A DNA stretch of 64,000 nucleotides, taken from NCBI GenBank assembly GCA_029860075.1, contig JAOUBX010000011.1, positions 11,031 to 75,030 on the forward strand, written 5' to 3'. Both the position numbers and the translations under genes were made by a program. Under the pieces are notes generated by a model, which saw nothing but the letters and a program-made list of their open reading frames with translations, did not search any database and was not told the origin of the DNA. Of the stretch, positions 13,991-48,462 are shown in pieces. How positions within the stretch are numbered: the stretch's first letter is position 1; every line of letters begins with the position of its first letter. This stretch comes from Deltaproteobacteria bacterium. Lineage in GTDB: Bacteria; Desulfobacterota; JADFVX01.

Positions 13991-14176
13991 TTAACGATTA
14001 TTTCTGATGGATCCGACAATAAAAAGAATGATGCCTGAAAATAGAAAAAGTGTTGAAGTTTCAATGAGATGAAGACCACCACGCCAGGAAAGTAATAAAT
14101 TCAAGCTTCCCAGGAAGGTAAGAACAGCGCCAAGGATGCGTGTTTTAACGCCTTTTTTTAATTCAACGTCTTCCAC
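13991..14176 (-). CDS. Small two-TM membrane protein, hypothetical
   Basis: 61 aa, two hydrophobic helices. Its start overlaps the 3' end of the radical SAM gene by 14 bp, suggesting translational coupling. Confidence 0.4.
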   Translation of the reverse strand: MEDVELKKGVKTRILGAVLTFLGSLNLLLSWRGGLHLIETSTLFLFSGIILFIVGSIRNNR

Positions 14177-15389
14177 CGACCTTGCTCCTCATGGCTTCCA
14201 TAATATCAGGAGTAATTACCTGGTAACCTTTGGTTCGCGCATAGCGTTCCAGCCCCTTTTTTACCATCTTGCGTAAAAATATGGGTACTTTTTCGAGACG
14301 TTCCTTTGCTTCCGGCGTCCAGCCAAGTTCTCCCTTATGAGGGAGTGCTATGCCACTTTCGGCCTTGTCCGGTTCATAATCACACCAGGGATCTTCACCC
14401 ATTACATCCCCTGTGGCAGAAAGGGCCCTGGCACGGCAGCCACCGCAAACATCATTGTAGCGGCAATCACCGCATTTTCCATTATATTGAGGGGCCCTCA
14501 TCTGCTTGAATATGGGCGACCTGTCCCAGATTTCCACTAGTGACTCTTTTTTAAGGTTACCACCGGATGTGGTCATATAGGGACATGGTGTCACATCCGC
14601 CTCAGGAGAGATCCTGAAATAACCACTACCGGCAATGCAGCCGCTGGTAGCGCCTTTCATAATGGATGAGTCCGGTGAATTCTGCTGCACTACCCTCAAA
14701 AAATGCGGTGCACAGCGCGCCCTCACCATAGTTTTACCGGCATATTCTTCTTCTGCTTTAGCGAGCCAGGTAAGCATCTTTTCATACTGCGGGGGCGTAA
14801 TGTCCGTCATTTCCTGCCCCCGACCTGTGCAAACAAGAAAAAAGACATTTGCAACTTTGGCCCCTTTTTGAGAGGCAAATTCGATCAATTCGGGGATTTC
14901 ATCATAATTGTTTCGGGTCACGGTAAATTGCAGCTGAAATTCAAGGTCATTTTTTTTCAATAAGTCGATAGCGTCAACCGTCTTTTGCCAACATCCGGGA
15001 CTTCCTCTAAAGTCGTCATGACTTACGGGATTAATAGAATCGAGGCTCAAGCCCACACCCTGAAGACCGGCCAGTTTCATACGAAGAATAACTGCCTCAT
15101 TGAGCAGAGTTCCATTGGTTCCAAGTACGACATTAAGACCCTTATCTGAAGCATACTGTACAATATCAATCAGATCAGGCCTGGCCAGAGGTTCTCCCCC
15201 TGTTAGAATCAGCATGGCGCCGGGACAAAGTTCAGCTATCTCATCGACTATACCAAGAGCCTCAGCGGTCGTTAAATCGCCCTCCCCTCCTTCCAGCTCG
15301 GCAGCATCGAGGTAGCAGTGCTCACATTTCAAATTACAACGCTTGGTCAGGTTCCATGAGATTAAAAAGGGGACTGCGCTTCTGGTCAT
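14163..15389 (-). CDS. Radical SAM/SPASM protein of the AhbC/AhbD/NirJ family with a C-terminal PCP_red-like domain
   Basis: N-terminal ISWNLTKRCNLKCEHCY (CX3CX2C) is typical of AhbD/NirJ haem-modifying radical SAM enzymes. The Cys-rich C-terminal region CGDCRYNDVCGGCRARA is SPASM-like. The last ~50 aa (GWTPEAKERLEKVPIFLRKMVKKGLERYARTKGYQVITPDIMEAM) resemble the BchB C-terminal PCP_red domain. Confidence 0.7.
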   Translation of the reverse strand: MTRSAVPFLISWNLTKRCNLKCEHCYLDAAELEGGEGDLTTAEALGIVDEIAELCPGAMLILTGGEPLARPDLIDIVQYASDKGLNVVLGTNGTLLNEAVILRMKLAGLQGVGLSLDSINPVSHDDFRGSPGCWQKTVDAIDLLKKNDLEFQLQFTVTRNNYDEIPELIEFASQKGAKVANVFFLVCTGRGQEMTDITPPQYEKMLTWLAKAEEEYAGKTMVRARCAPHFLRVVQQNSPDSSIMKGATSGCIAGSGYFRISPEADVTPCPYMTTSGGNLKKESLVEIWDRSPIFKQMRAPQYNGKCGDCRYNDVCGGCRARALSATGDVMGEDPWCDYEPDKAESGIALPHKGELGWTPEAKERLEKVPIFLRKMVKKGLERYARTKGYQVITPDIMEAMRSKVGGRR

Positions 15390-16834
15390 GATAATGTCCT
15401 TTCCGTTGCATGTAGTACAGGGCTTTCCCTTTGACTTTTTTTAAACTTCACATGCTCTGCATCAAATTGACGCCCAATAGTTTCAGCAACCGTCTTTCCC
15501 TGTGAAATACAGGCCCTTACAGAAACACCCTGCAAATAATTACCCGTTACATGGAGTCCGGGAATAAGAGCCAGTTCTTCATCCAGTTTTTTCAGAAACA
15601 TTTGATGCCCCAGGTTATATTGAGGGAGCGCCTTTTTATGGCGAACAACACGAGTCAAAGAGGGGAAACCTTTTACTCCCACAAGCTGGCGTAAATCTTT
15701 AAGGCATCGATCGATGAGTTCCTCATCAGGAAGATCCACCAAATCCTTATTTCTCATCCCCCCCAAATAGGAGGTAAAGAGCACCTCATCACCCTTCGTC
15801 CGTCCCGGAAAAAGGGTTGAAGACCAGAGAGAGCCAAGGCTGGAAAATCCTTTTTCCCTTGCAGGAATCAAACAACCAATACCATCCAGTTTATGTTCTA
15901 CATCTTCTCTTTTGAAAGTGATATAGATTATATTCATTGAGGAATACTCGATACCTTTTAGCATCATGGACAGGTTGACCGATAGTTGATCAACAAGCCC
16001 GGCAGCAATACCGGCAGGAGTGGCCATAACGACGGCATCCCCCTTTATAATTGAGTTCCCGGCAGAACCGGTATGAACATACCATTCTTTACCGACACGC
16101 TCGATTTTTTCAATGGGACAATCGGTAACCAGCTTATCGCCAAGATAATTGCCAAGACCTTTAATGAGACTTTCCATACCGTCTTTAAAGGAAAAGACTT
16201 CAGCGGCACAGGCCGTCCTGATTCCTTTCATCTTCCTTGCAACAACTCCCTTAAGAATACTTCCGTGATCTTGTTCGAGGGCCGCAAATTGTTTAAAAGT
16301 GCTTTTCAGGCAAGCTTTTTCAGCATCACCGGCAAGCGTTCCTGTTACATAGGGTTCAATGGAACGATCAAAAACCTCACGCCCCAGCCGACGGGTAATA
16401 AACTGGGCCACCGTCTCTTCCTGCTCAGGTGCACTTTTAGGAATTAGAGGCTCCACCATGAGCCGCAGCTTTGCCTTTAAACTCCAGAGGTCACTAAAGA
16501 TAAGTTCCCCTATCTTCATGGGAACAACTTTGGGCTTACCATTTTTAACGAGATATCGTCGCTTTGCCGCTTCCTGCCGGGCAATTTTTTCAGGGCCTAA
16601 ACCGAGGGTATTAACCATAAAGTTAACTTCAGGGAGGAAATTAAAAACACAATTGGCCGCATGATCAATTAGAGCGCCACCAACTCTTTCACTCTTGATG
16701 AGCCCCCCGGCTCTGGCATTTCTTTCAAGGACAACAGCATGAAAGCCCTTTTGCTTCAGCCAGAAGGCAGCCGAAAGGCCTGAAATACCTCCACCGATGA
16801 TGATCACTCTTTTTTTGTTAAGATCAACTGCCAT
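15386..16834 (-). CDS. FAD-dependent protoporphyrinogen/coproporphyrinogen oxidase (HemY/CgoX-like)
   Basis: 482 aa, N-terminal VIIIGGGISGLSAAFWL dinucleotide fold, amine-oxidase-like HemY family. Overlaps the downstream radical SAM gene by 4 bp. Confidence 0.75.
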   Translation of the reverse strand: MAVDLNKKRVIIIGGGISGLSAAFWLKQKGFHAVVLERNARAGGLIKSERVGGALIDHAANCVFNFLPEVNFMVNTLGLGPEKIARQEAAKRRYLVKNGKPKVVPMKIGELIFSDLWSLKAKLRLMVEPLIPKSAPEQEETVAQFITRRLGREVFDRSIEPYVTGTLAGDAEKACLKSTFKQFAALEQDHGSILKGVVARKMKGIRTACAAEVFSFKDGMESLIKGLGNYLGDKLVTDCPIEKIERVGKEWYVHTGSAGNSIIKGDAVVMATPAGIAAGLVDQLSVNLSMMLKGIEYSSMNIIYITFKREDVEHKLDGIGCLIPAREKGFSSLGSLWSSTLFPGRTKGDEVLFTSYLGGMRNKDLVDLPDEELIDRCLKDLRQLVGVKGFPSLTRVVRHKKALPQYNLGHQMFLKKLDEELALIPGLHVTGNYLQGVSVRACISQGKTVAETIGRQFDAEHVKFKKSQRESPVLHATERTLS

Positions 16835-16860
16835 AGTTTTTTTGATAGTGCCTCATTTGA

Positions 16861-16962
16861 AGTGCCTAAAGTGAACTAAAGTGAACTAAAGTGCCTGAAA
16901 TGTAATTTCTACTTCTTAAATTTAGGCACTTTAAACTTTAGGCATTTTAGGCACTTTTACCG
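16861..16962. repeat. Palindromic array of AGTGCCTAAAGT-type units
   Basis: Left arm AGTGCCTAAAGTGAACTAAAGTGAACTAAAGTGCCTGAAAT. Right arm AAATTTAGGCACTTTAAACTTTAGGCATTTTAGGCACTTTT. This forms a long imperfect hairpin that overlaps the last codons of the cytochrome gene ending at 16947. Confidence 0.8.
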
Positions 16963-18479
16963 TTCTTCCTCCTGGCAGTGGTAAACCACCAGAACTCGCC
17001 CCCTATAATGACAGCGATCACCAAAAGGGGAATGTAGTAAACATCGGCCCCGGCCGCTGGTTTTAGGAAGAGCCAATACCAGGTTGACATGGTATGTTTG
17101 GAGCCTTTCTCGCTATTGCTGCCATCCCAGGCGGCAAAGGCAATGGGAACAAATCTGCCTGTAGGAATCTGAAGATCAGTCGAACCATCAGCCGTCGTTA
17201 AGGGTCTTTTCATAACAACACGCCATGCCCCCTTTTCATAGTGCGACTTAGCCTCAAGTCCGACTGTTGCGGCATCTCTTTTTTCTATGGCCCCAAAACC
17301 TTTACTATTAAGGAGTTGGATCATCTCGGGCTTTTCCGTAGTGCCACTCTTCCAGTGCCATACATTGACGGGGTTAGAAGCATCGCCCATCCCGAAATAG
17401 GGTTTTTCCATATCACTGGGATCATCGGATATGGCCAGGGGGAGCTGAACCGCCACTCCGTCCTCAAAGAGGTTTTCATCGGCAATATTGGCCGCTACAC
17501 TATCACCGGGAATACTTTTGGTCCTGTCATCCCACTCAAGAAGCATGGAAATTTCCTTATCATTGTAGAATGCCCGGAGTGTAATCGTGTCATTGGATGG
17601 TGTAAAGAAACGATCCTTGGCAATAATTTGAGGAAGCAGATAGAAGGTTGTCGGCTCACTGCTTGCCCATTTTTCATCTGTCGGTGAATGGGGAAGATCC
17701 CCTTCGAGTTTTTCCGCCTTAACTACTGTATTTTCACCTTTAACGACCTTCTCTGTCTTGGCAAGAGAAGCGGCATAATTGGCCACATGCCACCGCTCTT
17801 CGATAGAAAGCTTCTTTTTACTTGCCGGGTCGGCAAAAGAAGGCATCTGCGTGCCATGAATACCCACTGAAATACGGGAATAAATATCCCTGGGGTCATT
17901 GCTGCCCCTGAAAGTCCATGGCTTTGTCAGGTTTCTGGGCCAGGTCCTGAAACCGAGATCATCTTTCAGTTTCTTAATGGCGTTCCCCTTCCCTTCTTCA
18001 CCATGGCATTCGGAGCAGCGGTCAATAAAGAGTTCTTTTCCTTTTTTTATACTATCTTCAGATGATTGAATCTGCTTGCCATAATCAACCTGGTCCGTCG
18101 GTTTTTCCTCTTCATAACCGGCAAAGGTTTTGATATAGGCCACAAGATCCCACATGTCCTGTTCAGAGATAATATCGTCCCAGCCGGGCATTGCCGTTCC
18201 CGGCATACCCTCGGCAATCATTCTATAAATATCTTCATCATTGGGTACGGGATCATCAAAGCCGGTTGTTTTGATCTTGTACATGCCCGAACTAAAGTCC
18301 CTGGGCGGAGGATTGAGCCGTTCAGCGGCAGGACCATCTCCCTCTCCCTCTTCACCATGACACCAGACACAGCGTTTGTTATAGACCTTTGTCCCATTCT
18401 CTACATTGCCCGGTTTGGCTATGGCGTTACAGACCAACAAAGCTGAAATAATTAACGCAATAAGAACATGCTTTTTCAT
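16947..18479 (-). CDS. Dihaem cytochrome c with large C-terminal domain and C-terminal TM anchor (paralogue of 36673..38298)
   Basis: Signal peptide, CVWCH and CSECH motifs, ~300-aa C-terminal domain, terminal hydrophobic helix VYYIPLLVIAVIIGGEFWWF. Confidence 0.8.
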   Translation of the reverse strand: MKKHVLIALIISALLVCNAIAKPGNVENGTKVYNKRCVWCHGEEGEGDGPAAERLNPPPRDFSSGMYKIKTTGFDDPVPNDEDIYRMIAEGMPGTAMPGWDDIISEQDMWDLVAYIKTFAGYEEEKPTDQVDYGKQIQSSEDSIKKGKELFIDRCSECHGEEGKGNAIKKLKDDLGFRTWPRNLTKPWTFRGSNDPRDIYSRISVGIHGTQMPSFADPASKKKLSIEERWHVANYAASLAKTEKVVKGENTVVKAEKLEGDLPHSPTDEKWASSEPTTFYLLPQIIAKDRFFTPSNDTITLRAFYNDKEISMLLEWDDRTKSIPGDSVAANIADENLFEDGVAVQLPLAISDDPSDMEKPYFGMGDASNPVNVWHWKSGTTEKPEMIQLLNSKGFGAIEKRDAATVGLEAKSHYEKGAWRVVMKRPLTTADGSTDLQIPTGRFVPIAFAAWDGSNSEKGSKHTMSTWYWLFLKPAAGADVYYIPLLVIAVIIGGEFWWFTTARRKNGKSA

Positions 18480-18685
18480 AGTTACCGTCCTAAATCATTA
18501 TTGAAGAAAAATTGAAACTACTCATTTAATCCTTACTTCCCCTCTTTAGCAAAGGGGGGCGATGGGGAGATTTGAATAGCTATACCTTACTTAAATCCCC
18601 CTTAATTCCCCTTTACCAAAGGGGGAGAGTCCACATATCTTTCTCAGACTAATCCCATTACAATCTGCGCTTAGTTAATCATTAT

Positions 18686-19456
18686 TTAATGACCCTCTCC
18701 CCATGACCTCGGCGCCTGGCCTGTATAATCATAGAGAAAAAGAATAACCTTCCAAATTTCGTCTTCTGTCAGAAAATCCTCCCAGATGGGCATGGACGAT
18801 ATCCAGGGGGCAGCCTCTTTAGGCAGCCCCGGACCTCCCGTTGCTATTCTCCAAAAAAGAAAAGATTCCTGTAACTGGGCAATGGTCCCTACATCCTGAA
18901 AGTTGATGGGAAGTGGATTGAGTCTCTCCGCATAAGGTCCCCTGCCATCTAGCTTATCTCCATGACAATACTGACAGTTCTGGATATAAACATCTCCACC
19001 TTCCTTGACAAACTCTTTAAACTTTTCGGGATCTTCTTTTTCAAACTTCCTGTAGGGATTTTCAAGGGTCGACAGATCAAAACGCTTTCCAAAGGCTTTT
19101 AAAGTCGATGGTGGCGCAGGATGAATCGTTCTTAGTTCGACGGGGGCTTCAAAACTTGGAAGCATTTTTTGAAAGGTATAGCCTCCTATCAATAAAGGAA
19201 TAAGAGCAAAGACAATATTTCGAACCATCTTTTGTGAAGGGTCCTCAACGAGCGCCTTGATCGGTGCGGCAAGCTCCCTGGTACTCTCTTCCGTCGCCGT
19301 ATAGACCATTAGAACGCCTACGATAACGAAGAACATATACATGGTAAGCAGGCTTGATGGTATGAGCTGGCCAAGAATGACACCAAATATAATCTTGAAT
19401 GCGGCGTATATTCCTACAACAACTAAGACGGCCTGTAATAACTTGGGTATTTTCAT
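18686..19456 (-). CDS. Membrane-anchored monohaem cytochrome c (paralogue of 38380..39369)
   Basis: Two N-terminal TM helices and a single CQYCH motif. Clear similarity to 38380..39369 (shared GGPGLP and PINF motifs). Confidence 0.8.
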   Translation of the reverse strand: MKIPKLLQAVLVVVGIYAAFKIIFGVILGQLIPSSLLTMYMFFVIVGVLMVYTATEESTRELAAPIKALVEDPSQKMVRNIVFALIPLLIGGYTFQKMLPSFEAPVELRTIHPAPPSTLKAFGKRFDLSTLENPYRKFEKEDPEKFKEFVKEGGDVYIQNCQYCHGDKLDGRGPYAERLNPLPINFQDVGTIAQLQESFLFWRIATGGPGLPKEAAPWISSMPIWEDFLTEDEIWKVILFLYDYTGQAPRSWGEGH

Positions 19457-19470
19457 TTCTTAAGCTCTCC

Positions 19471-20280
19471 TTATTTCTGACTTGCCATATACTTAACGAG
19501 AATCTCCAACTCACTTGCAGCCATCTGCTCACCGAGGTCCGGCGGCATCATATCAGGCTCAAAGCCCTTTGCTATGTCGGCATTGGGATCAAGTATGGCC
19601 CTTCTCAGATAATTACTATCAACACTGGCACCTATTTTAGTCAGGTCCGGAGCGATGTCCCCAAGGTGACCTGCAATTTTATGGCACATGCCGCAGCCAA
19701 ATTTTTCAACAATCTCTTCCGGTGTTTTTAAGGCAACACGTACAGTCTCTTCCTCCCCTTCTTCCTCTGCAGGTGCATCAGTGGGGATCTCTACCGTTAC
19801 ATCGACACCGGCCGAATCCTGTAAGTAGGCAATAACGGCTTTTACCTCAGCATCTGAAAGTCCGATGCTCCCTGATGAAACATCGGGCATGGGACTAACC
19901 GTATCATTCGTCCCGGCCTTACCGAATCCGGCTACCACAAAGGCGGAGGGTTTAATGAGAGATTCCATAACATAGGCTTCCGAACTCTTTGCCTCCCCTT
20001 TGTAGCGGGCATCCTTCATCCGCTCTTCAGCAATGGCGGCAACCTTATTTATCATTGGCGCCCGCCCCAGTTCATTATGACAAAGCGTACAGGTTCCCTT
20101 TCCTTTATATATCTTTTCACCAAGTGCAATGAAGGTGTCCATCGTCATGGCACCCAGATCGAGTTTTTCCTCCACCGGCGGCGGAGCAGGCTTGACGTTG
20201 GGAATTCCATAGTTGGCATAGAGCGAAAAAGCTTCTATAGCCAAGACACTGAAGATCACTACCTTTAAAAAAGTCTTCAT
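19471..20280 (-). CDS. Dihaem class-I cytochrome c (paralogue of 39397..40371)
   Basis: Signal peptide, CTLCH and CGMCH motifs. Shares SLIKPSAFVVAGF / EVKAVIAYLQ blocks with the paralogue. Confidence 0.8.
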   Translation of the reverse strand: MKTFLKVVIFSVLAIEAFSLYANYGIPNVKPAPPPVEEKLDLGAMTMDTFIALGEKIYKGKGTCTLCHNELGRAPMINKVAAIAEERMKDARYKGEAKSSEAYVMESLIKPSAFVVAGFGKAGTNDTVSPMPDVSSGSIGLSDAEVKAVIAYLQDSAGVDVTVEIPTDAPAEEEGEEETVRVALKTPEEIVEKFGCGMCHKIAGHLGDIAPDLTKIGASVDSNYLRRAILDPNADIAKGFEPDMMPPDLGEQMAASELEILVKYMASQK

Positions 20281-20304
20281 CTAAATACTCCTTACTTGAA
20301 CGGC

Positions 20305-22161
20305 TCAGGTCGTGGCCGTTTTCTTCGTGCTTATCTGGGCAAGCCAGAAGATAAATATAACGAGGGCCATAAAGATGAGCGCCCCCGTCGAAACCACGTT
20401 AGCCGCATAACCGAGGGTCGGCGTAAATGCATCGGGAGAGGCATCTCTCATAATGTCCTTCACATGCCAATGCTGCCTGATTCCGGAGCGAATGTATCCC
20501 ATAAGGCCCATAAGCCAGGTAAAGGAAACGGCCAAAAGAAAAAGGGCATACTGCGACCGGTCCGGCACCTTTCCCCAGTTAAGAGGCGCCACTTCCTTTG
20601 CCCCCTTATACATAAAGGTGTCGATAACAGTGCATAAGACAATGATCACCAGCGTCGTACAGACCTGTGGAATGGAGGCTGCCACTTTGTAAACGGTATT
20701 GGTAAAGTAACCGTAATAAACACCAAGGATGAGAATATTGATGATACCCGCTGTAAAGATGGCCGACTGAGCGGCATTACCCGCCTTTTCCCAGCTTACA
20801 ACAGCCACTTTATTGCACCGCCGGTAAAGCATGAAGCTTAAGAAGGTAAAGGAGATCATAATATTTACAGCTGTATTCTTGGCAGGCATAATACCGAGAG
20901 GCCCGAGGTATTTATTGTAGGGACCACCCAGCGATTTAAGTTCTGCATTTGTCAGGATAAGTGTATGAGGTGTAAACCAGACCAAAAATGCACCGATGAC
21001 TGCAATGGCAATATACTTGATATACCTGGTATATCTGACAGCGCCTTCACTTCTCCCCATACAGCACCAGAGATAATAGTTTGCAGAGAGAAAAAGAGCC
21101 CCAATGAGGACGGCCTGAATAATAAAGAGCCAGGCAAAAACACCTCCCATGAGAGTAATTCCCATCTGTTGGCTATAGGCATAAATCTCGGCTGTCAGAT
21201 AATAGCCTGCAAAGGGCAATGGAAGCAGTGCCGATATGGCGATGAAGTTGGCATTATAGCCCATCCAGTCATAATGTGCTCTTTCCTCGGCCTTTGTTGC
21301 ACAGAGGAATTTATAGGCCGCATAGGCGCCGACAATGGAACCGCCATAGGCAACGTTGGCAATCACCCTGTGCAGGTTGATGGGATTCCATAAAAAATTA
21401 TGAATCACATCCCATTCGGAACCGAGGAATGCCCCCTTAATATCGACACCTGCCGGACTCATCATAAAGGTGACCCAGGCATTGGCCAGGAGCATCAAAG
21501 TGGTACCGACGGCATTAAGCATAAGCCCTATGGTGAGATGAACCCATTTTCTAAAACCTCCCTGCAGCCACTGCCAGCCATAATAATAGATGTAAAGGCA
21601 GGCGGATTCGGCAAAGAAGAGGAAAGCATAGGCCAGCATGGTCTTGCTAAATATGGATGAAAGATATTTAAAGAAATCAGGATAAAAAACGAGAAGTCCG
21701 AAAGCAGTAAGCCCGCCCAGGATAGCTGTTATGGAATAAGCCGTGAGACTAACCTTAATGAACTCATAGGCCATATCATCAAATTTTTTGTCCTTTGTCG
21801 CCATGCCGATAGATTCAATGATGAAGACAAAGATGGGAACGGCAAGAACAAAGGCGGCAAACCATAAGTGAAGCTGGGCGGCAAGCCAGACAAAGACCCT
21901 GCCGTTAATTCCGGGAATTTGCGGATAATCATCCGCTGTCAGTACCGGCGCCGGGGGATAAACTTTCGCAGCAACCGCTTCTTCACCGGCAGCGGGTTCG
22001 GCAGGAGGAGCCGCCTCTTCCTGCGAACTTGCAAGAGCCTCTGCAATACCGGAAAGTGATCTGTCAAAAGCGCCTAAATCGACTATCTGCACCAGGGCAG
22101 ATGCAATGAGAAGAAATAACAGTAACGCTCTCCACTTCTTAATAAAAGAAAGCAAGCTCAT
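20305..22161 (-). CDS. Cytochrome bd superfamily (CydA-like) membrane protein, CydB-less, copy 1
   Basis: 618 aa polytopic. N-terminal AAQLHLWFAAFVLAVPIFVFIIESIG aligns with the CydA His19/Glu helix-1 motif. NAWVTFMMSPAG aligns with the CydA NGWMQNP region. C-terminal GYIRSGIRQHWHV aligns with the CydA GWxxAExGRQPW motif. No cydB follows. Confidence 0.8.
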   Translation of the reverse strand: MSLLSFIKKWRALLLFLLIASALVQIVDLGAFDRSLSGIAEALASSQEEAAPPAEPAAGEEAVAAKVYPPAPVLTADDYPQIPGINGRVFVWLAAQLHLWFAAFVLAVPIFVFIIESIGMATKDKKFDDMAYEFIKVSLTAYSITAILGGLTAFGLLVFYPDFFKYLSSIFSKTMLAYAFLFFAESACLYIYYYGWQWLQGGFRKWVHLTIGLMLNAVGTTLMLLANAWVTFMMSPAGVDIKGAFLGSEWDVIHNFLWNPINLHRVIANVAYGGSIVGAYAAYKFLCATKAEERAHYDWMGYNANFIAISALLPLPFAGYYLTAEIYAYSQQMGITLMGGVFAWLFIIQAVLIGALFLSANYYLWCCMGRSEGAVRYTRYIKYIAIAVIGAFLVWFTPHTLILTNAELKSLGGPYNKYLGPLGIMPAKNTAVNIMISFTFLSFMLYRRCNKVAVVSWEKAGNAAQSAIFTAGIINILILGVYYGYFTNTVYKVAASIPQVCTTLVIIVLCTVIDTFMYKGAKEVAPLNWGKVPDRSQYALFLLAVSFTWLMGLMGYIRSGIRQHWHVKDIMRDASPDAFTPTLGYAANVVSTGALIFMALVIFIFWLAQISTKKTATT

Positions 22162-22182
22162 TTTAACTCCTTAGTGTATTAT

Positions 22183-22299
22183 TTAGTGATGAAAAAAGAG
22201 AGAGAGCCCCTGCGCTTTCATCAAACCAAAATCAAGGGCAAAGTAAATAACTGCTGATACGGCCAGAGAAACGATAAATGGGCCCATAAATGACTTCAT
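22183..22299 (-). CDS. Single-TM small peptide (38 aa), possible CydX-like accessory subunit
   Basis: MKSFMGPFIVSLAVSAVIYFALDFGLMKAQGLSLFFHH with GAGGAGG SD 5 nt upstream. Located 21 bp upstream of the cydA-like gene. Absent from the 60-aa-cutoff ORF track. Confidence 0.45.
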   Translation of the reverse strand: MKSFMGPFIVSLAVSAVIYFALDFGLMKAQGLSLFFHH

Positions 22300-22319
22300 A
22301 ATGCCTCCTCAATATATAA

Positions 22320-22409
22320 TCATAAAAACCAGATAAAAAATGCTGTAATGGCAATAAGCACGACAATAAACAGAGCCGGCCCTGCCAATCCTGCTTTTTC
22401 TGAACTCAT
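22320..22409 (-). CDS. Single-TM small peptide (29 aa), hypothetical
   Basis: MSSEKAGLAGPALFIVVLIAITAFFIWFL, lying between the sigma-54 promoter and the cydA-like gene. Confidence 0.35.
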   Translation of the reverse strand: MSSEKAGLAGPALFIVVLIAITAFFIWFL

Positions 22410-22595: not shown

Positions 22596-22612
22596 TTGCA
22601 ACTGCCATGCCA
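22596..22612 (-). promoter_or_regulatory. Sigma-54 (-24/-12) promoter driving the cydA-like operon 1
   Basis: The minus strand reads TGGCAT-GGCAG-TTGCA, matching the TGGCAC-N5-TTGCW consensus. It sits about 190 bp upstream of the first small ORF. Confidence 0.7.
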
Positions 22613-22699
22613 TTCGTCTAAACCCGCTAAAAGTCGACAATCAAGGCGAGTTTTGCTAATAGGGCATCTTTTTTTCGGATAAAAAGCGAACAGTAAAGT

Positions 22700-22726
22700 G
22701 GTAACATTCTTACCAGTAAAAAGTGT
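22700..22726. promoter_or_regulatory. Candidate enhancer-binding-protein site (dyad GGTAA-N5-TTACCAGT)
   Basis: GGTAACATTCTTACCAGTAAAAAG lies about 100 bp upstream of the sigma-54 -24 element. The same dyad with the same spacing sits upstream of the second sigma-54 promoter at 53716. Confidence 0.6.
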
Positions 22727-23009
22727 AGTTAGAGTGGTAAAGTATTTTAAAATCCGGCAAGAATATAGTATCTTTAAGGTCTACAGCAAGACAGGCACAT
22801 AAAGAGACAAGTTGGTACTTTTTTTGCTCACGAAATGAAGGTATAAAAGATTTAAAAGGAGAATATGAATGATTAAAAAAGAACACCTGCCCAATATTGT
22901 TATCATGTCCGGCCTGGTAGTAAATGTTATCGTCATTGTGGCAATCCTCTACTTCTACCTCTAGGACTCATTCAAAGTGATAAACAACATGAAAGGGACA
23001 TGATCGAGG

Positions 23010-23639
23010 ATGCCTGAAAAAAAAACGTGCTTTTTAAATATAAGTCTCATTATCTTGGCACTAAGCTTCAGTTTAACGCTTTTACCTTTTTCCCATTTAA
23101 GAGCGAGTGAATCTCATGCAGAGGAAAATGTTTCACCTGAAATGCCCCCCGGTGGCAATTTCACACTAAACTCTGCCGACGGAGCAATATCCTTAAACAG
23201 ATATAAAGGCAAGGTAGTCGCCCTCCTCTTCGGCTACACAGAGTGCCCTGAGATTTGTCCCGGCTTCCTGACGGTAATGTCCAGGGCCTTTGCAGGGCTC
23301 AGCGAAGATGACGTTAAAAAGGTAAGGGGCTTTTTTATCAGCTTCGATCCGCAGCGGGACTCTCTTGAAAAACTCAAGGAATATTCGGCATACTTTCACC
23401 CAAATATAGCAGGCCTCAGCGGTTCAGTAGAAGAAGTTGAAAAGGTAGCGGAGCAATATGGTGCGCTTTACTATAAAATTGAGAAAGGCGGATCGCCCGG
23501 AGACTATCACTTTCTTCACTCAGCCAACATCTACCTCATAAGCCCGGAAGGCAAACTGGAATATATATTCAATGAAAACTCACCACCATCGGAAGTGACG
23601 GCAGCTATCCGGAGTCTGCTCGAAAAAGGGAAATTGTAA
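23010..23639 (+). CDS. SCO1/SenC family copper chaperone
   Basis: 209 aa thioredoxin-like protein with CPEIC (CxxxC) plus a downstream His. N-terminal membrane anchor. Confidence 0.8.
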   Translation: MPEKKTCFLNISLIILALSFSLTLLPFSHLRASESHAEENVSPEMPPGGNFTLNSADGAISLNRYKGKVVALLFGYTECPEICPGFLTVMSRAFAGLSEDDVKKVRGFFISFDPQRDSLEKLKEYSAYFHPNIAGLSGSVEEVEKVAEQYGALYYKIEKGGSPGDYHFLHSANIYLISPEGKLEYIFNENSPPSEVTAAIRSLLEKGKL

Positions 23640-23644
23640 TCTCT

Positions 23645-24094
23645 ATGATACGCATAATAATTATAACGGTCCTTCTTTCCCTTGCAGCCTGCACATCCAA
23701 AATGGCAATCCCTGCGCCTGAAGAGGCCTCCCTAATCAAGGTATCCAATCCATACATCCTGGAGCTTCCGCCTGTTTCAAAAAACAGCGCTGCATACATG
23801 GAGTTGCTAAACAAAGGCAACAGGGATGTATCTCTCATCGCAGTTTCAAGCCCTGCATCGGCTTCAGCCTCATTTCATGACCATATCCACAAAAATGGTC
23901 TCATGATGATGGAAAAACTCGACAAAGTAGCAATAAATAGCGGTGAGTCACTAAACTTCAAAGTCGGCAGCCTCCATATCATGCTGGCAGGGCTCAAAGA
24001 AAGCCTCTACAAAGGTGACATTGTTCCCCTGACATTTACCTTCAGCGACAGCAGTACACTTACAATCAATATTCCGGTACGAAAACGACAATAG
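23645..24094 (+). CDS. Periplasmic copper chaperone PCu(A)C (DUF461)
   Basis: 149 aa, lipoprotein-like signal (LAAC). His/Met-rich HDHIHKNGLMMMEK copper-binding motif. Confidence 0.75.
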   Translation: MIRIIIITVLLSLAACTSKMAIPAPEEASLIKVSNPYILELPPVSKNSAAYMELLNKGNRDVSLIAVSSPASASASFHDHIHKNGLMMMEKLDKVAINSGESLNFKVGSLHIMLAGLKESLYKGDIVPLTFTFSDSSTLTINIPVRKRQ

Positions 24095-36672: not shown

Positions 36673-38298
36673 TTACTCCTCTTCCCTTCTGACTCTTCTT
36701 ACTAGCCAGAACTCACCGAGGCCCGTCAAAACGACACCGAGCAGTGCATAGATATAAACGTTCATCGGCGTGGGGGCCTCCATAAAGAGATAGTGCCAGG
36801 AGGAGAGACTCATAATAAGTCCATGCTCACCATTTGATCCATCCCATGCATTTAAAGCGAGAGGGATAAATTTGCCCTCTTCGAACTGGACGTCATTCTT
36901 GTCCTCTGTTTTAAGGGGGCGCTTCATAACCACTTTGTATGTAGCTCCCTTCCAAATCGCCTTTGACGTCACCTGCTGCTGGTCGGCCGGCTGTGACTTT
37001 ATGGGCTGTTTGTAACCCCTTGCAATAGAATCCTCTACAGCCGGTTCGCCGGCTGCATCCTTGTCGGCCTTCCATAGCCAGAGGTTCACCGGGTTTCCTG
37101 CATCACCTCTGAAGAAGTGAGGCTTCTTCGTCCCTTCAGCCATTTTGACGGGGAACTGTAAGGCGATGGAATCTCTGAAGTTATCAAAGTGTCGCGGGAT
37201 CATATCATTTGCCGCTACATATGAATTATATGCCCCTATTTTACTTATTTCCCTGGCATTAAACTCCTGCGATTCATCGTGTGTAAGATCCTGGAAAGGA
37301 TCATCCCACTCGACAAGGATGGCTATCTCTTTATCGTTATAGAGAGCCCTTACACTGGCAAGTTCGATACTTGGATTCTGCCATCTTGGCGCAGCAATAA
37401 CCTGTCCTGCCAGCCTTACATCCATAGGCTCGGCATTTTGCCACTGCGGTGCCTCGGGATCCTGAGGAAGTTCTCCATCGATCTTCTTTGCCTTCATTAC
37501 CGAGTGCTCTGTAGGGGTATACTGGAGCGACTTGATGTAGTTAGCCAGGTACCACCTTTCCTCATCATTAAAAGATTTTGCAAAGGAAGGCATGGGAGTA
37601 CCCATAATACCCGTTGAAAAGCGCATATAAATATCTTCAACTTCTGACCCTGCTTTAATTTTCCATGGCTGGGTAATATTCCTGATACGAATGGGAAAGC
37701 CCCAGTCATCTTCTTTTATATCCTTCTGACCATCACCCTTACCGCCTTTCCCATGACATTCAAAGCATTTTGCCCTCATAAAGAGTTCCTTGCCTTTTGC
37801 AATGGTATCTGCATTGTAGGGTGCTTTATTCGCGGGAAGACTTATTACTTTTTTACTTGGATCAAGCTCGGGATCTTCAAATTCCATGGCAAAGGTTTTG
37901 ATGTAATAGATAACCTGCCACCGTTCCTCTTCTGTAAGACCGTTCTTAATAATGTCATTATCAAAGGCCTGCATGGGAGTTCCCTGCAGACCACGGCTGA
38001 CAGTCCTGAAAAGATCTTCATCGGTAGGCAACTCACCACTTCCCGTCGTCCTGAACTTGAATACACCAAGGGTAAAATCTCTCGGTCTGGGATCCATATA
38101 ATCGGCAGCCGGGCCATTACCGTCCCCTAAAAGCCCGTGGCAGAAGCTGCACCTTTTGTAGTATATCTCTCTCCCTTTTTCAACGTTCTCAGGCGTCACA
38201 GGCGGCTTCGCCTTAGTCGGTTTTATGCCGGCCAGGGCACTAGTCCCAAACATAGTCATCAATATCGTTATTGCCAGAATGATTGCTCTTCTCTGCAT
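36673..38298 (-). CDS. Dihaem cytochrome c with large C-terminal domain and C-terminal TM anchor (paralogue of 16947..18479)
   Basis: Signal peptide, CSFCH and CFECH. Shares the conserved NPVNLWLWK / AWDGSN blocks with the paralogue. Terminal TM helix. Confidence 0.8.
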   Translation of the reverse strand: MQRRAIILAITILMTMFGTSALAGIKPTKAKPPVTPENVEKGREIYYKRCSFCHGLLGDGNGPAADYMDPRPRDFTLGVFKFRTTGSGELPTDEDLFRTVSRGLQGTPMQAFDNDIIKNGLTEEERWQVIYYIKTFAMEFEDPELDPSKKVISLPANKAPYNADTIAKGKELFMRAKCFECHGKGGKGDGQKDIKEDDWGFPIRIRNITQPWKIKAGSEVEDIYMRFSTGIMGTPMPSFAKSFNDEERWYLANYIKSLQYTPTEHSVMKAKKIDGELPQDPEAPQWQNAEPMDVRLAGQVIAAPRWQNPSIELASVRALYNDKEIAILVEWDDPFQDLTHDESQEFNAREISKIGAYNSYVAANDMIPRHFDNFRDSIALQFPVKMAEGTKKPHFFRGDAGNPVNLWLWKADKDAAGEPAVEDSIARGYKQPIKSQPADQQQVTSKAIWKGATYKVVMKRPLKTEDKNDVQFEEGKFIPLALNAWDGSNGEHGLIMSLSSWHYLFMEAPTPMNVYIYALLGVVLTGLGEFWLVRRVRREEE

Positions 38299-38379
38299 GT
38301 CAACCCTCTCTTAAAATTTTCAATTGTTTATTGACGATTGTTGAATGATTTTTCAACCATCAATCGTCAATCTTCAATC

Positions 38380-39369: not shown

Positions 39370-39396
39370 TTATATCTCCCTTATCGTATCAATTCT

Positions 39397-40371: not shown

Positions 40372-40503
40372 TGATAACCTCCAAAGAATAGTTCTGAAAA
40401 TGACTTGTAATCTCCCCTAACCCCTCTTTTTCTAAGAGGGGAACATTGCTCTTTCCCCCTTAGAAAAAGGGGGATTAAGGGGATTTTCAAATAACTTTAT
40501 TAA

Positions 40504-42785: not shown

Positions 42786-43331
42786 CTATTTCTCTCTTTT
42801 AAGCGCCCTTACAAACCTCACCACACCGGCAATCTCTTCCACCTCCATCTCTTCATCGTCGATATTCGTTTTACTGCAGATATTGATGGGTTCCGTCAAA
42901 TCCTTCAGTTTATCGTTAGAAGGAGTCTTGCTATTCAAAGGAGGAATGGATTGACTATGGCATTCCAGGCAAATTTCTTCAAAGAGCTTGTCACCTGTAA
43001 CGGCCCTGGCATAGAGGATCATGCTCTTCATTTCATCCTCGTTAATAACGTCCTTCCAGGGAGGCATTAGCTCTCCCTTTCCCTCCTTGATCGTCTTTAA
43101 AAGTTCCTCCTCCTTTTTATCGAGCCGTTCACCCTTTGCAAAGTTAGGGGCTTCAGGAAGAACTGAATTACCGTCAAAGCCATGACAGGCTGCACAGTTT
43201 TCTTCATAGATGGCTCTAGCCTTTTTTATTATTTCAAGTTTCTCTACCCACTTTGCATCTTCAGCGGCAAAGGCCGAACCTGTAAAAGCAGCTGCTAATA
43301 ACAATGCCAGAATGATAATTACTCTATTCAT
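42786..43331 (-). CDS. Periplasmic dihaem cytochrome c
   Basis: 181 aa, signal peptide, CAACH and CLECH. Confidence 0.8.
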   Translation of the reverse strand: MNRVIIILALLLAAAFTGSAFAAEDAKWVEKLEIIKKARAIYEENCAACHGFDGNSVLPEAPNFAKGERLDKKEEELLKTIKEGKGELMPPWKDVINEDEMKSMILYARAVTGDKLFEEICLECHSQSIPPLNSKTPSNDKLKDLTEPINICSKTNIDDEEMEVEEIAGVVRFVRALKREK

Positions 43332-48450: not shown

Positions 48451-48462
48451 AGTATATACCTC

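What the first reader, a model, noticed from the sequence alone, without database searches (positions are those of the whole stretch)
22596..22726. Sigma-54 promoter plus GGTAA-N5-TTACCAGT enhancer dyad upstream of bd-like operon 1, with the same pair upstream of the Aio-like operon
Two -24/-12 elements match the RpoN consensus: TGGCAT-GGCAG-TTGCA at 22596-22612 and TGGCAT-GTCTG-TTGCT at 53614-53628. Each has the near-identical sequence GGTAAC-N4-TTACCAGT-(A/T)AAAAG about 100 bp upstream (22700 and 53716). A sensor kinase and NtrC-type sigma-54 activator pair sits immediately upstream of the second site. Together these predict a single two-component regulon that co-induces an arsenite-oxidase-like enzyme and a bd-like terminal oxidase, which is a complete substrate-to-acceptor chain.
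Basis: seen in the sequence. Interest (0 to 1): 0.85.

Follow-up and report, generated by a model that had tools for sequence, protein, structure and literature searches.

The report
Sigma-54 regulon linking two respiratory operons
A sensor kinase and activator pair very probably switches on an iodate-reductase-like molybdenum enzyme cluster and an uncharacterised bd-like oxygen reductase through shared DNA sites and sigma-54 promoters; the circuit is real and conserved, but its mechanism is conventional and the enzyme is probably not an arsenite oxidase.

Summary
The window's only two exact TGGCAY-N5-TTGCW elements (22597-22612 and 53613-53628, minus strand) each lie 95 bp from the centre of a TGGTAA-N5-TTACCA dyad.

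I found further elements:
- a divergent -24/-12 element (22813-22828, +) sharing dyad 1
- a second dyad at site 2
- two tandem dyads upstream of the usp-kinase-regulator operon

Five independent orthologous kinase/regulator loci (a sixth, L168, duplicates L167) carry the same dyad plus sigma-54 element just downstream of the regulator gene. A 93% relative of bd-like operon 1 preserves the whole divergent architecture. No such pairing occurs in 2.25 Mb of control loci.

A single NtrC-type regulon is therefore well supported, though binding is inferred. The physiological reading needs correcting. The "Aio-like" operon has the idrP2-P1-B-A order of iodate reductases. Its Mo subunit is about 50% identical to that of the iodate reducer Azonexus NCP973, against about 29% for true AioA.

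In two other genomes (L084, L174) the Mo cluster and the bd-like operons are contiguous. A kinase and sigma-54 regulator upstream of idr has already been noted in print for Azoarcus DN11. I found no description of the promoters, the motif or the extended regulon. This is a new member of a known kind, of moderate interest.

The parts
22597..22612 (-). Sigma-54 (-24/-12) promoter P_bd1, TGGCATGGCAGTTGCA. The predicted start is near 22587, with a leader of about 177 nt to the first small ORF.
   Evidence: It is an exact consensus match and joint top score in the window. L172 conserves it as TGGCATGACAGTTGCA. There is no sigma-70-like match in the whole 22150-23020 region.
22699..22715 (.). Enhancer dyad UAS1, TGGTAACATTCTTACCA. 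Its centre is 95 bp from P_bd1 and 106 bp from the divergent P_sco.
   Evidence: It is a perfect palindromic arm match. L172 conserves it as TGGTAAGAATATTACCA. It is one of 14 sites that give the consensus TGGTAA-N5-TTACCA.
22813..22828 (+). Divergent sigma-54-like promoter P_sco, TGGTACTTTTTTTGCT, about 31 nt upstream of a 31-aa ORF.
   Evidence: It is the third best -24/-12 score in the window. L172 conserves it as TGGTACCTTTTTTGCT in the same divergent position.
22869..24094 (+). Divergent unit: a 31-aa membrane peptide (22869-22964), an SCO1/SenC copper chaperone (23010-23639) and PCuAC (23645-24094).
   Evidence: Pfam hits are and ORF coordinates. L172 has a 31-aa ORF followed by DUF420 in the same position.
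14163..22409 (-). bd-like operon 1. It comprises two small membrane ORFs (22320-22409, 22183-22299), a CydA-like 618-aa protein (20305-22161), cytochromes c (19471-20280, 18686-19456), a cytochrome c/EB_dh protein (16947-18479), an amine-oxidase-like protein (15386-16834) and a radical SAM/SPASM/PCP_red protein (14163-15389).
   Evidence: Pfam hits are. The same gene order is found in L172, L173 and L174.
53613..53628 (-). Sigma-54 promoter P_idr, TGGCATGTCTGTTGCT. The predicted start is near 53603, with a leader of about 244 nt to the porin gene.
   Evidence: It is an exact consensus match. Equivalent elements lie downstream of the regulator gene in L084, L167, L169, L170, L171 and Azonexus L175. 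There are no sigma-70-like matches on the minus strand.
53692..53731 (.). Tandem enhancer dyads UAS2b (53692-53708, TGGTTGGATGTTTACCA) and UAS2a (53715-53731, CGGTAACCTTATTACCA). They are 23 bp apart, with centres 72 and 95 bp from P_idr.
   Evidence: Tandem dyads 20-25 bp apart also occur in L084, L167, L170 and L171.
42786..53359 (-). Iodate-reductase-like operon. It comprises a porin (52265-53359), a 259-aa CarboxypepD_reg-like protein (51422-52201), di-haem peroxidases (50276-51403, 49016-50260), a Tat-Rieske subunit (48463-49002), the Mo subunit (45733-48450), a HEAT-repeat protein (43344-45665) and a cytochrome c (42786-43331).
   Evidence: Pfam and NCBIfam hits are. Synteny is seen in L081, L084, L167, L170 and L175.
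36673..42615 (-). bd-like operon 2: a CydA-like 703-aa protein, two cytochromes c and a cytochrome c/EB_dh protein. It lies directly downstream of the Mo operon, with no -24/-12 element or dyad of its own.
   Evidence: Pfam hits are and the intergenic scan. The same contiguity is seen in L084 and L174.
53866..55230 (-). NtrC-type response regulator (REC, sigma-54 AAA+, HTH_8). It has Asp55, Walker A at 173, a GAFTDA loop at 220 and the HTH sequence LGISRLTLRDKLKKY at 436.
   Evidence: Pfam hits are and motif positions. It is the only sigma-54 activator homologue in the window. Orthologues are 62% (L084) and 49% (Azonexus) identical.
55249..57594 (-). Sensor histidine kinase (dCache, HAMP, PAS, HisKA, HATPase).
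   Evidence: Pfam hits are. About 40 clusters of full-length orthologues exist. The Azonexus NCP973 kinase upstream of idr is 34% identical over the full length.
57673..59472 (-). Usp/PCP_red protein (599 aa), the first gene of the usp-kinase-regulator unit. Its homologues belong to the bd-like supercluster elsewhere.
   Evidence: Pfam hits are. Homologues lie at the end of the bd-like operons in L084 and L173.
59687..59736 (.). Tandem dyads UAS3 (59687-59703 CGGTAAATATCTTACCA and 59720-59736 TGGTAGTTTTTTTACCA). They are 33 bp apart and lie 215-260 bp upstream of usp. No canonical -24/-12 element follows them.
   Evidence: The only candidate, AGGCTCTTCTTTGCT, has GG-N9-GC spacing. The dyads are not conserved upstream of the kinase gene in L167, L169, L170 or L171. 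A half-site lies at the cut end of L084.

Best explanation
This is a two-component, sigma-54-dependent regulon.

Proposed mechanism:
1. The membrane kinase (dCache-HAMP-PAS-HisKA-HATPase) senses a periplasmic or redox signal and phosphorylates the NtrC-type regulator at Asp55.
2. Regulator dimers bind the palindrome TGGTAA-N5-TTACCA, present as one or two copies 60-220 bp upstream of -24/-12 promoters. They assemble into the AAA+ ring and use ATP to open the sigma-54 closed complex.

Predicted targets in this genome:
- the porin / idrP2-P1-B-A-like / HEAT / cytochrome c operon, possibly reading through into bd-like operon 2
- bd-like operon 1, with its haem-related accessory genes
- from the same dyad, a divergent unit encoding a 31-aa peptide and the copper chaperones SCO1 and PCuAC
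- possibly the usp-kinase-regulator unit itself, through two dyads that lack a recognisable sigma-54 promoter

The circuit therefore co-induces an iodate-reductase-like molybdoenzyme with cytochrome-c-dependent bd-like oxygen reductases.

Shown here: the sequence elements, their statistical rarity, their conservation and co-occurrence with the regulator, and the gene content.

Inferred: binding of this regulator to the dyad, the transcription starts, the signal, and the physiological role. The role would be iodate respiration with oxygen or peroxide handling, rather than arsenite oxidation.
For: - **Rarity.** The two exact sigma-54 consensus matches are the only ones in 64 kb (expected 0.14). 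Together with the divergent element they are the three top-scoring GG-N10-GC sites, and all three are intergenic and correctly oriented. The dyad has 4 matches against 0.11 expected.
- **Background.** No dyad plus sigma-54 pairing occurs in 2.25 Mb of 160 loci that encode paralogous NtrC-type regulators. The exact dyad occurs at 0.89 per Mb there.
- **Conservation with the regulator.** L084, L167/L168, L169, L170 and L171 each have the dyad(s) and a -24/-12 element directly downstream of the orthologous regulator gene. The 14 sites give the consensus TGGTAA-N5(AT-rich)-TTACCA, with arms conserved in sequence and the spacer free.
- **Conservation at the bd-like promoter.** L172 (93% CydA-like identity) keeps the dyad and both divergent -24/-12 elements, while the flanking and leader DNA diverges.
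- **Recognition helix tracks the motif.** LGI(S/C)RLTLRxK is shared by the regulators associated with TGGTAA dyads. The Azonexus regulator (LGINRVTLRNK) goes with a variant GGTTAA inverted repeat.
- **Regulator features.** It has all the domains of a sigma-54 activator and is the only one in the window. No sigma-70-like promoter is found on the relevant strand at sites 1 and 2.
- **Phasing.** Dyad-to-promoter distances cluster at about 95 bp plus or minus whole helical turns (Rayleigh p about 0.008 at 10.5 bp; weak, and the sites are not independent).
- **Independent functional link between the targets.** The Mo cluster and the bd-like operons are contiguous in L084 and L174, and bd-like operon 2 follows the Mo operon in the window.
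- **Idr assignment.** The order is P2-P1-B-A (PMC10989891, PMC8692401). Identity is 49.9% to the Azonexus NCP973 large subunit against 28-31% to AioA. NCP973 has the same kinase, sigma-54 regulator, -24/-12 element and idr layout.
- **Expression in cultured iodate reducers.** idr genes are induced by iodate at 0.1 uM or more and by low oxygen (PMC11445184).
Against: - No binding, transcript-start or expression data exist for this uncultured organism.
- Only 64 kb of the genome could be scanned, so the genome-wide specificity of the dyad is unknown. rpoN could not be checked.
- The AAA+ loop reads GAFTDA, not the canonical GAFTGA. The variant is shared by the L084 and Azonexus orthologues.
- Site 3 has dyads but no canonical sigma-54 promoter.
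- The closest relative of the Mo operon (L081, 88%) lacks the kinase, the regulator, the porin, the dyad and the sigma-54 element. The Vibrio idr locus and the high-GC loci L173 and L174 lack them as well. The circuit is therefore lineage-specific and not intrinsic to the enzymes.
- In the two Nitrospirae loci the same kinase, regulator and dyad module drives a Rieske/cytochrome b plus multihaem cytochrome cluster instead. The signal may thus be a general redox or oxygen cue rather than iodate.
- Iodate reductase function rests on about 50% identity and synteny only. This clade also carries HEAT-repeat and 259-aa proteins that are absent from the Azonexus cluster.
Confidence: 0.72

Rival explanations
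1. The promoters and the shared regulon are real, and the first reader's physiology holds. The Mo enzyme oxidises arsenite or another reductant and passes electrons through the co-encoded cytochromes c to the bd-like oxygen reductases. The regulon would then encode a full donor-to-oxygen chain.
For: The Mo subunit and the Rieske subunit pass NCBIfam's arsenite oxidase equivalog cut-offs (420.5 against 359, and 131 against 96 bits). The best solved relatives are AioA. Three of the four AioA substrate-pocket residues align as conserved: His, Arg and His. Tight and recurrent linkage with cytochrome-c-dependent bd-like oxidases and several soluble cytochromes c is what a donor-to-oxygen chain would look like.
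Against: Identity to true AioA is only 28-31%, against 50-52% to idr-type proteins. Two peroxidase genes sit in the idrP2-P1-B-A order, which aio loci lack (PMC8692401, PMC10989891). There is no AioX. The AioA Glu207 position is Ser here. The Azonexus NCP973 orthologous cluster belongs to a strain used as an experimental iodate reducer (PMC13455634). The NCBIfam model predates the separation of the Idr clade, which is my inference from the modest score.
Confidence: 0.15
2. The sigma-54 promoters are real, but the dyad is the site of a different DNA-binding protein. Candidates include the Rrf2 regulator at 35904-36395 or a global factor. The adjacent regulator would act from other, unrecognised sites, so the two operons would not necessarily share one activator.
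For: No binding data exist. Site 3 has dyads without a sigma-54 promoter. L169 keeps the dyad although its regulator ORF lacks the HTH domain. L172 shows the dyad on a contig where no regulator gene is visible.
Against: The dyad follows the orthologous regulator gene in five independent loci whose other neighbours differ (Mo operon or bc/multihaem cluster). It lies at enhancer distance from a -24/-12 element in every case. The recognition helix co-varies with the motif in Azonexus. The regulator is the only sigma-54 activator in the window. The dyad is absent from 160 loci of paralogous regulators.
Confidence: 0.1
3. The dyad is an RNA or DNA structural element, for example the intrinsic terminator of the regulator gene or a repeated palindromic element, and not a protein-binding enhancer.
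For: The site-2 dyad is flagged as terminator-like, lies about 135 nt after the regulator stop codon, and folds at -11.5 kcal/mol (z -2.1).
Against: Dyad 1 lies between two divergent promoters and upstream of both, so it is not expected to be transcribed by either. The other dyads fold weakly (-2.9 to -5.4 kcal/mol, z about -0.7) and none has a proper U-tract. The arms are conserved in sequence across two phyla rather than by compensatory change. No other copies exist in the window.
Confidence: 0.03

Closest known systems
AioXSR / RpoN control of arsenite oxidase aioBA (Agrobacterium tumefaciens, Rhizobium sp. NT-26, Herminiimonas arsenicoxydans; reviewed in PMC7533571)
   Same: A two-component kinase plus a sigma-54-dependent response regulator is encoded next to, and in the same direction as, a Rieske/Mo-subunit operon of the Aio/Idr branch. 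The operon is driven by a -24/-12 promoter with an upstream activator site.
   Different: There is no AioX periplasmic binding protein, because the kinase has its own dCache sensor domain. The binding motif TGGTAA-N5-TTACCA differs from the AioR site as I recall it (GT[CT]CG-N6-CG[GA]AC). That is from memory and was not verified here. The enzyme is idr-type, not AioA. The regulon also extends to bd-like oxidase and copper-chaperone operons.
idrABP1P2 iodate reductase clusters with upstream 'atoS/atoC' genes (Azoarcus sp. DN11, PMC10149662; Azonexus hydrophilus NCP973 plasmid NZ_CP151407)
   Same: The gene order is kinase, sigma-54 regulator, two peroxidases, Rieske subunit, Mo subunit. Identities to Azonexus are 49.9% (Mo subunit), 49% (regulator) and 34% full-length (kinase). 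There is a -24/-12 element (TGGCACAGTGACTGCA) with an upstream inverted repeat in the regulator-idrP2 spacer.
   Different: In the literature only the adjacency of the two regulator genes is mentioned. I found no description of promoters, binding sites or a regulon. The Azonexus repeat is GGTTAAAAAT-type, not TGGTAA-N5-TTACCA. The Azonexus cluster lacks the porin, the 259-aa protein, the HEAT protein and the bd-like operons.
NtrC, ZraR and AtoC-type bacterial enhancer-binding proteins
   Same: The architecture is REC-AAA+-HTH_8. The best NCBIfam similarities are AtoC, NtrC and ZraR, all below their cut-offs. Palindromic sites, often in tandem, lie about 60-220 bp upstream of sigma-54 promoters. 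A divergent promoter pair shares one enhancer, as at zraP/zraSR, which I cite from memory.
   Different: It is not an equivalog of any named family. The DNA motif and target genes are new, and the AAA+ loop reads GAFTDA.
OR-N type cytochrome bd-like oxygen reductases of Nitrospirota and Nitrospinota (bioRxiv 10.1101/2021.01.16.426971; PMC10839748)
   Same: The CydA-like proteins match only the N-terminal part of PF01654 and are encoded with c-type cytochromes rather than CydB. These enzymes are described as uncharacterised, probably cytochrome-c-oxidising oxygen reductases.
   Different: Subfamily assignment was not tested here. I did not find linkage to an idr-type enzyme, or to a sigma-54 regulon, described in the papers read.

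Membership tests
Sigma-54 (RpoN) dependent promoter | GG and GC doublets exactly 10 nt apart within TGGCAC-N5-TTGCW | tested here: met
   The matches are 22597-22612 TGGCATGGCAGTTGCA and 53613-53628 TGGCATGTCTGTTGCT (exact), and 22813-22828 TGGTACTTTTTTTGCT (one mismatch).
Sigma-54 (RpoN) dependent promoter | Intergenic, oriented towards a downstream operon, with an activator site upstream | tested here: met
   All three elements are intergenic and point at operons. Dyad centres lie 72-106 bp upstream.
Sigma-54 (RpoN) dependent promoter | Conservation of the element in orthologous regions | tested here: met
   It is conserved in L172 for both divergent promoters, and in L084, L167, L169, L170, L171 and L175 for the promoter downstream of the regulator gene.
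Sigma-54 (RpoN) dependent promoter | rpoN present in the genome; transcript start about 12 nt downstream of the GC | not testable with these tools
   Only 64 kb of the genome is available and no transcript data exist. rpoN is not among the window genes annotated.
NtrC-type two-component enhancer-binding protein | REC + sigma-54 interaction AAA+ + Fis-type HTH domains, with a cognate kinase adjacent | tested here: met
   The regulator matches PF00072, PF00158, PF25601 and PF02954. The kinase has HisKA and HATPase domains directly upstream.
NtrC-type two-component enhancer-binding protein | GAFTGA sigma-54 contact loop | tested here: inconclusive
   The loop reads GAFTDA at residue 220. The same variant occurs in the L084 and Azonexus orthologues. 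The functional consequence is unknown.
NtrC-type two-component enhancer-binding protein | Direct binding of the regulator to the dyad | not testable with these tools
   Binding is inferred only from co-occurrence, position and helix/motif co-variation.
AioBA arsenite oxidase with AioXSR | Close sequence relationship of the large subunit to characterised AioA | tested here: not met
   Identity to plasmid-borne AioA genes is 28-31%. The best PDB hits are AioA, in a partial alignment. The protein does pass TIGR02693 (420.5 against 359 bits), far below what a true member would score, which is my inference.
AioBA arsenite oxidase with AioXSR | aioB-aioA without cytochrome c peroxidase genes; AioX periplasmic binding protein upstream of the kinase | tested here: not met
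   Two CCP_MauG genes directly precede the Rieske gene. No periplasmic binding protein gene lies near the kinase; the upstream gene is Usp/PCP_red. The criterion is from PMC8692401 and PMC7533571.
AioBA arsenite oxidase with AioXSR | Substrate-pocket residues His199, Glu207, Arg447, His451 (NT-26 numbering; residue roles recalled from the structural literature) | tested here: not met
   His, Arg and His are conserved, but Glu207 aligns with Ser211. The position is variable (S, D, E, T) across the idr-like family.
IdrP2P1BA iodate reductase | Gene order peroxidase-peroxidase-Rieske-Mo subunit | tested here: met
   The genes are 50276-51403, 49016-50260, 48463-49002 and 45733-48450 on the minus strand. 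They correspond one to one with the Azonexus NCP973 cluster. The criterion is from PMC10989891 and PMC8692401.
IdrP2P1BA iodate reductase | Large subunit 50-80% identical to IdrA of confirmed iodate reducers (range given in PMC8692401) | tested here: inconclusive
   Identity is 49.9% to the Azonexus hydrophilus NCP973 large subunit and 51.8% to Vibrio sp. THAF190c, at the lower edge of the range.
IdrP2P1BA iodate reductase | [3Fe-4S] motif C-X2-C-X3-C in the large subunit and a Tat signal on the Rieske subunit | tested here: met
   The large subunit has CDYCIVAC at residues 26-33 and matches PF18465. The Rieske N-terminus reads SRRAFL. The motif description is from PMC10149662.
IdrP2P1BA iodate reductase | Iodate-reducing activity and induction by iodate | not testable with these tools
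   The organism is uncultured.
OR-N type cytochrome bd-like oxygen reductase | CydA homologue retaining the N-terminal haem/oxygen-site helices, encoded with c-type cytochromes instead of a quinol site and CydB | tested here: inconclusive
   PF01654 matches only profile positions 5-231 and 3-239 of 418. Three cytochrome c genes follow each CydA-like gene. The quinol-site residues and the subfamily were not examined.

The most novel reading that the evidence does not exclude
The dCache kinase and its sigma-54 regulator are the so far unidentified sensor system that switches on iodate reductase genes in response to iodate or an iodate-derived oxidant. In this lineage the system deliberately co-induces two cytochrome-c-dependent bd-like (OR-N-type) oxygen reductases and their copper and haem maturation genes. 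That would mean iodate respiration by these enzymes is obligatorily coupled to oxygen or peroxide turnover. It would fit the disputed 'cryptic oxygen' model, and it would give the uncharacterised OR-N oxidases their first defined physiological partner.
Probability: 0.25. Interest if true: 0.7.

Novelty: new member of a known kind. Interest (0 to 1): 0.45.

Why it matters
idr genes are known to be induced by sub-micromolar iodate and by low oxygen (PMC11445184). I found no sensor, promoter or operator described. One paper only notes that a kinase gene and a sigma-54 regulator gene lie upstream of idr in Azoarcus DN11 (PMC10149662).

This locus adds three things:
- a concrete operator motif, promoter positions and a candidate sensor domain, all testable in cultured relatives such as Azonexus NCP973 and Azoarcus DN11
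- regulatory evidence, backed by gene-neighbourhood evidence, that an idr-type enzyme works together with OR-N-type bd-like oxygen reductases, whose function is still unproven
- support for the published reinterpretation of marine "aioA-like" genes as iodate reductases rather than arsenite oxidases

The mechanism itself (enhancer-binding protein plus sigma-54) is textbook, so the value lies in the wiring, not in a new principle.

Tried and rejected
- **Collection scans with the regulator.** Scans of genome contigs and metagenome contigs returned only paralogues (at most 47%, one at 52%) with no shared neighbours. I reused them as a 2.25 Mb background set.
- **Exact look-up of the regulator protein.** It was not on record, probably because of a different called start.
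- **Sigma-54 promoter at site 3.** None was found. The only candidate has GG-N9-GC spacing, and no sigma-70-like match lies on the minus strand.
- **Autoregulatory dyads upstream of the kinase gene in other loci.** They are absent from L167, L169, L170 and L171.
- **Own promoter or dyad for bd-like operon 2.** None was found in the 170-bp spacer.
- **Riboswitch or other known RNA in the long leaders.** Rfam finds only two tRNAs in the window.
- **IHF site between dyad and promoter.** I saw no conserved WATCAA-N4-TTR match by eye. A conserved block, TTGTCGACTTTTAGCGGG, is left unexplained.
- **Terminator reading of the dyad.** Rejected on position and weak folding.
- **Nitrospinae kinase orthologue (L177).** It is an orphan kinase with no adjacent regulator, so it is uninformative for the motif.
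- **AioA active-site residues as a discriminator between Aio and Idr.** Only the Glu position differs, and it varies within the idr-like family, so it discriminates weakly.
Full report
**1. The observation**

Both -24/-12 elements exist on the minus strand: TGGCATGGCAGTTGCA at 22597-22612 and TGGCATGTCTGTTGCT at 53613-53628. They are the only exact TGGCAY-N5-TTGCW matches on either strand of the window, against 0.14 expected from shuffles. They are also the two best of 429 GG-N10-GC positions in a weighted consensus scan.

The dyads are as described, at 22700 and 53716. Refined to TGGTAA-N5-TTACCA with at most one mismatch, the pattern has 4 matches against 0.11 expected, and all four are intergenic. 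At both sites the dyad centre is exactly 95 bp from the 5' edge of the -24 element.

**2.

- The third best -24/-12 score in the window is TGGTACTTTTTTTGCT at 22813-22828 on the plus strand, 106 bp on the other side of dyad 1. It points at a 31-aa ORF, SCO1/SenC and PCuAC.
- Site 2 has a second, degenerate dyad 23 bp from the first.
- Two more dyads, 33 bp apart, lie at 59687-59736, upstream of a Usp/PCP_red gene that heads the kinase-regulator unit. No canonical sigma-54 element follows them; the only candidate has N9 spacing.
- A second bd-like operon (36673-42615) follows the Mo-enzyme operon directly.

**3. Gene content**

Site 2 drives the following genes, in order: a porin, a 259-aa CarboxypepD_reg-like protein, two di-haem peroxidases, a Tat-Rieske protein, a 905-aa Mo subunit with an N-terminal 3Fe-4S domain, a HEAT-repeat protein and a cytochrome c.

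Site 1 drives two small membrane ORFs, a 618-aa CydA-like protein, three cytochrome c proteins (one with an EB_dh domain), an amine-oxidase-like protein and a radical SAM/SPASM/PCP_red protein.

The regulator is REC-AAA+-HTH_8 and the kinase is dCache-HAMP-PAS-HisKA-HATPase. The regulator is the only sigma-54 activator homologue in the window.

**4. Comparative test of the regulatory model**

Scanning the genome and metagenome collections with the regulator returned only paralogues. I used them as a 2.25 Mb control set.

True orthologous loci came from exact-protein look-ups of homologues of the Mo subunit and of the kinase. In L084, L167/L168, L170 (Deltaproteobacteria) and L169, L171 (Nitrospirae), the spacer just downstream of the orthologous regulator gene carries one or two TGGTA-N7-TACCA dyads. 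A -24/-12 element scoring 17.8-19.7 follows them. L168 duplicates L167, so these are five independent loci.

In the 160 control loci there are 31 dyads with at most one mismatch and 386 sigma-54-like elements. Not one pairing falls within 40-300 bp.

Fourteen sites give the consensus TGGTAA-N5(AT-rich)-TTACCA. The arms are conserved in sequence and the spacer is free. Tandem copies 20-25 bp apart are the rule.

The HTH recognition region (LGI(S/C)RLTLRxK) is conserved among the regulators that go with TGGTAA dyads. It differs in the Azonexus regulator, whose spacer carries a GGTTAAAAAT-type inverted repeat instead.

**5. The bd-like promoter**

The 618-aa protein is highly conserved, at 72-93% identity in many marine lineages. 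Its closest relative, L172, has the same divergent layout: a perfect dyad, TGGCATGACAGTTGCA towards the two small ORFs and the CydA-like gene, and TGGTACCTTTTTTGCT towards a 31-aa ORF.

In the pairwise alignment the conserved islands are both promoters, the dyad and one further block between the dyad and P_bd1. The leader and the spacer towards the divergent promoter have diverged.

The high-GC proteobacterial loci L173 and L174 have the same structural genes but neither element. The circuit therefore belongs to a lineage, not to the enzyme.

**6. Rival readings of the dyad**

The site-2 dyad is flagged as terminator-like and folds at -11.5 kcal/mol. Three points argue against a terminator:
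- Dyad 1 lies upstream of both divergent promoters.
- The other dyads fold weakly and have no U-tract.
- The arm sequence itself is conserved across phyla.

No sigma-70-like promoter is found on the relevant strand at sites 1 and 2. Dyad-to-promoter distances show modest helical phasing (Rayleigh p about 0.008 at 10.5 bp). The sites are not independent.

**7. What the enzyme is**

The Mo subunit passes NCBIfam's arsenite oxidase equivalog cut-off only modestly (420.5 against 359 bits). Its best solved relatives are AioA, and the AioA Glu207 position aligns with Ser.

Against annotated plasmids the identities are bimodal. They are 50-52% over the full length to Vibrio sp. THAF190c, Azonexus hydrophilus NCP973 and Thiothrix, and 28-31% to bona fide AioA.

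The gene order peroxidase-peroxidase-Rieske-Mo is the idrP2-P1-B-A order. Published work treats it as characteristic of iodate reductases and absent from aio loci (PMC10989891; PMC8692401). Strain NCP973 is used as an experimental iodate reducer in PMC13455634.

Its plasmid carries, in order, a 760-aa kinase (34% identical over the full length), a sigma-54 regulator (49%), a spacer with an inverted repeat and TGGCACAGTGACTGCA, and then idrP2-P1-B-A, a cytochrome c and moaA.

The operon is therefore best called iodate-reductase-like. Function in this clade, which adds HEAT-repeat and 259-aa proteins, is unproven.

**8. The link between the two targets**

In L084 the Mo operon, a bd-like operon and a Usp/PCP_red gene are contiguous on one strand. 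In L174 the following are contiguous: HEAT, cytochrome c, bd-like type 2 operon, two cytochromes c, small ORFs, bd-like type 1 operon, amine-oxidase-like protein, porin and radical SAM protein.

The window has the type 2 operon attached to the Mo operon, and the type 1 operon 14 kb away with its own copy of the promoter and dyad. This is independent evidence that the enzymes work together.

Two explanations are available:
- The model attributed to Yamazaki et al. has oxygen released from HIO and respired by a terminal oxygen reductase (quoted in PMC8692401, section 9).
- Idr has been reported to be oxygen-sensitive and to be induced under oxygen limitation (PMC11445184).

Neither is shown here. 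The bd-like proteins resemble the uncharacterised, probably cytochrome-c-dependent OR-N family (bioRxiv 10.1101/2021.01.16.426971; PMC10839748).

**9. Limits**

- In the two Nitrospirae loci the same kinase, regulator, dyad and sigma-54 module drives a Rieske/cytochrome b plus multihaem cytochrome cluster. The signal may be a general redox or oxygen cue rather than iodate.
- The closest relative of the Mo operon (L081, 88%) lacks the whole usp-kinase-regulator-porin segment and both elements.
- The AAA+ loop is GAFTDA rather than GAFTGA.
- Binding, transcript starts and the signal are all inferred.

**10. Novelty and verdict**

The mechanism is the standard enhancer-binding-protein/sigma-54 mechanism. 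The closest analogue is AioXSR/RpoN control of aioBA (PMC7533571).

The adjacency of a kinase and a sigma-54 regulator to idr has been mentioned once, for Azoarcus DN11 (PMC10149662). Searches found no description of promoters, an operator motif or a regulon extending to bd-like oxidases and copper chaperones.

I file it as a new member of a known kind. The finding is real, conserved and useful for a niche open question: how idr genes sense iodate and what the OR-N oxidases do. It is not a new principle. I score interest at 0.45.

Noticed in passing
L084:2696-2711, L167:3044-3059, L169:12381-12396, L170:12312-12327, L171:12319-12334 (no counterpart in the window at about 55230-55250): A perfect sigma-54 consensus, TGGCACAGGTRTTGCA, sits 0-3 nt upstream of the first in-frame ATG of the regulator gene in all five orthologous loci. 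It lies either in the kinase-regulator spacer or over the kinase 3' end, in different reading frames. It is therefore conserved as DNA, not as coding sequence. It may be an internal promoter giving a near-leaderless regulator mRNA.
   Followed up: partly
window 52265-59472 compared with L081:5484-6260: The segment usp-kinase-regulator-enhancer/promoter-porin is absent from the closest relative of the Mo operon (88% identity). There the 135-aa and U32 peptidase genes (homologues of window 60072-62686) directly abut the 259-aa gene. The regulatory module looks like an inserted or lost cassette.
   Followed up: partly
window 32494-35512; L169:3024-6010; L177:6429-9920: A block comprising a small protein, DsbD_TM, a thioredoxin/AhpC-like protein, an ECF sigma factor and a possible anti-sigma factor lies near this kinase family in the window, in a Nitrospirae locus and in a Nitrospinae locus. 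This suggests a wider conserved neighbourhood for cytochrome maturation and envelope redox.
   Followed up: no
window 35904-36395: An Rrf2-family (iron-sulfur type) transcriptional regulator is encoded at the end of bd-like operon 2. It is a possible second layer of control, responding to redox state or NO.
   Followed up: no
window 14163-16834 and 57673-59472; L084:21266-22083; L172:6641-9312; L173:15055-20092; L174:15215-20991: An amine-oxidase-like flavoprotein, a radical SAM/SPASM protein with a PCP_red domain and a Usp protein with PCP_red domains travel with the bd-like operons in several genomes. They may make or modify a cofactor of these oxidases.
   Followed up: no
window about 22625-22650 (minus strand TTGTCGACTTTTAGCGGG); L172 about 893-920: A block between dyad 1 and P_bd1 is identical between the window and L172, although neighbouring DNA has diverged. 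It contains a GTCGAC palindrome. Its role is unknown, and it did not match the IHF consensus by eye.
   Followed up: partly
L169:12396-13697: The Nitrospirae regulator ORF is 433 aa, lacks the HTH domain and reads through the dyad. This may be a real truncation or an assembly error.
   Followed up: partly
window 43344-45665 and 51422-52201: A large HEAT-repeat protein and a 259-aa CarboxypepD_reg-like protein are conserved parts of this idr-like operon in Deltaproteobacteria and marine lineages. They are absent from the Azonexus idr cluster, which marks a distinct subtype of the enzyme system.
   Followed up: no
window 24866-25741: A FixP-like (cbb3 oxidase subunit III) gene lies downstream of the SCO1/PCuAC unit, after a gap of about 770 bp with no ORF of 80 aa or more (24094-24866). 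No CcoN or CcoO genes were identified nearby.
   Followed up: no
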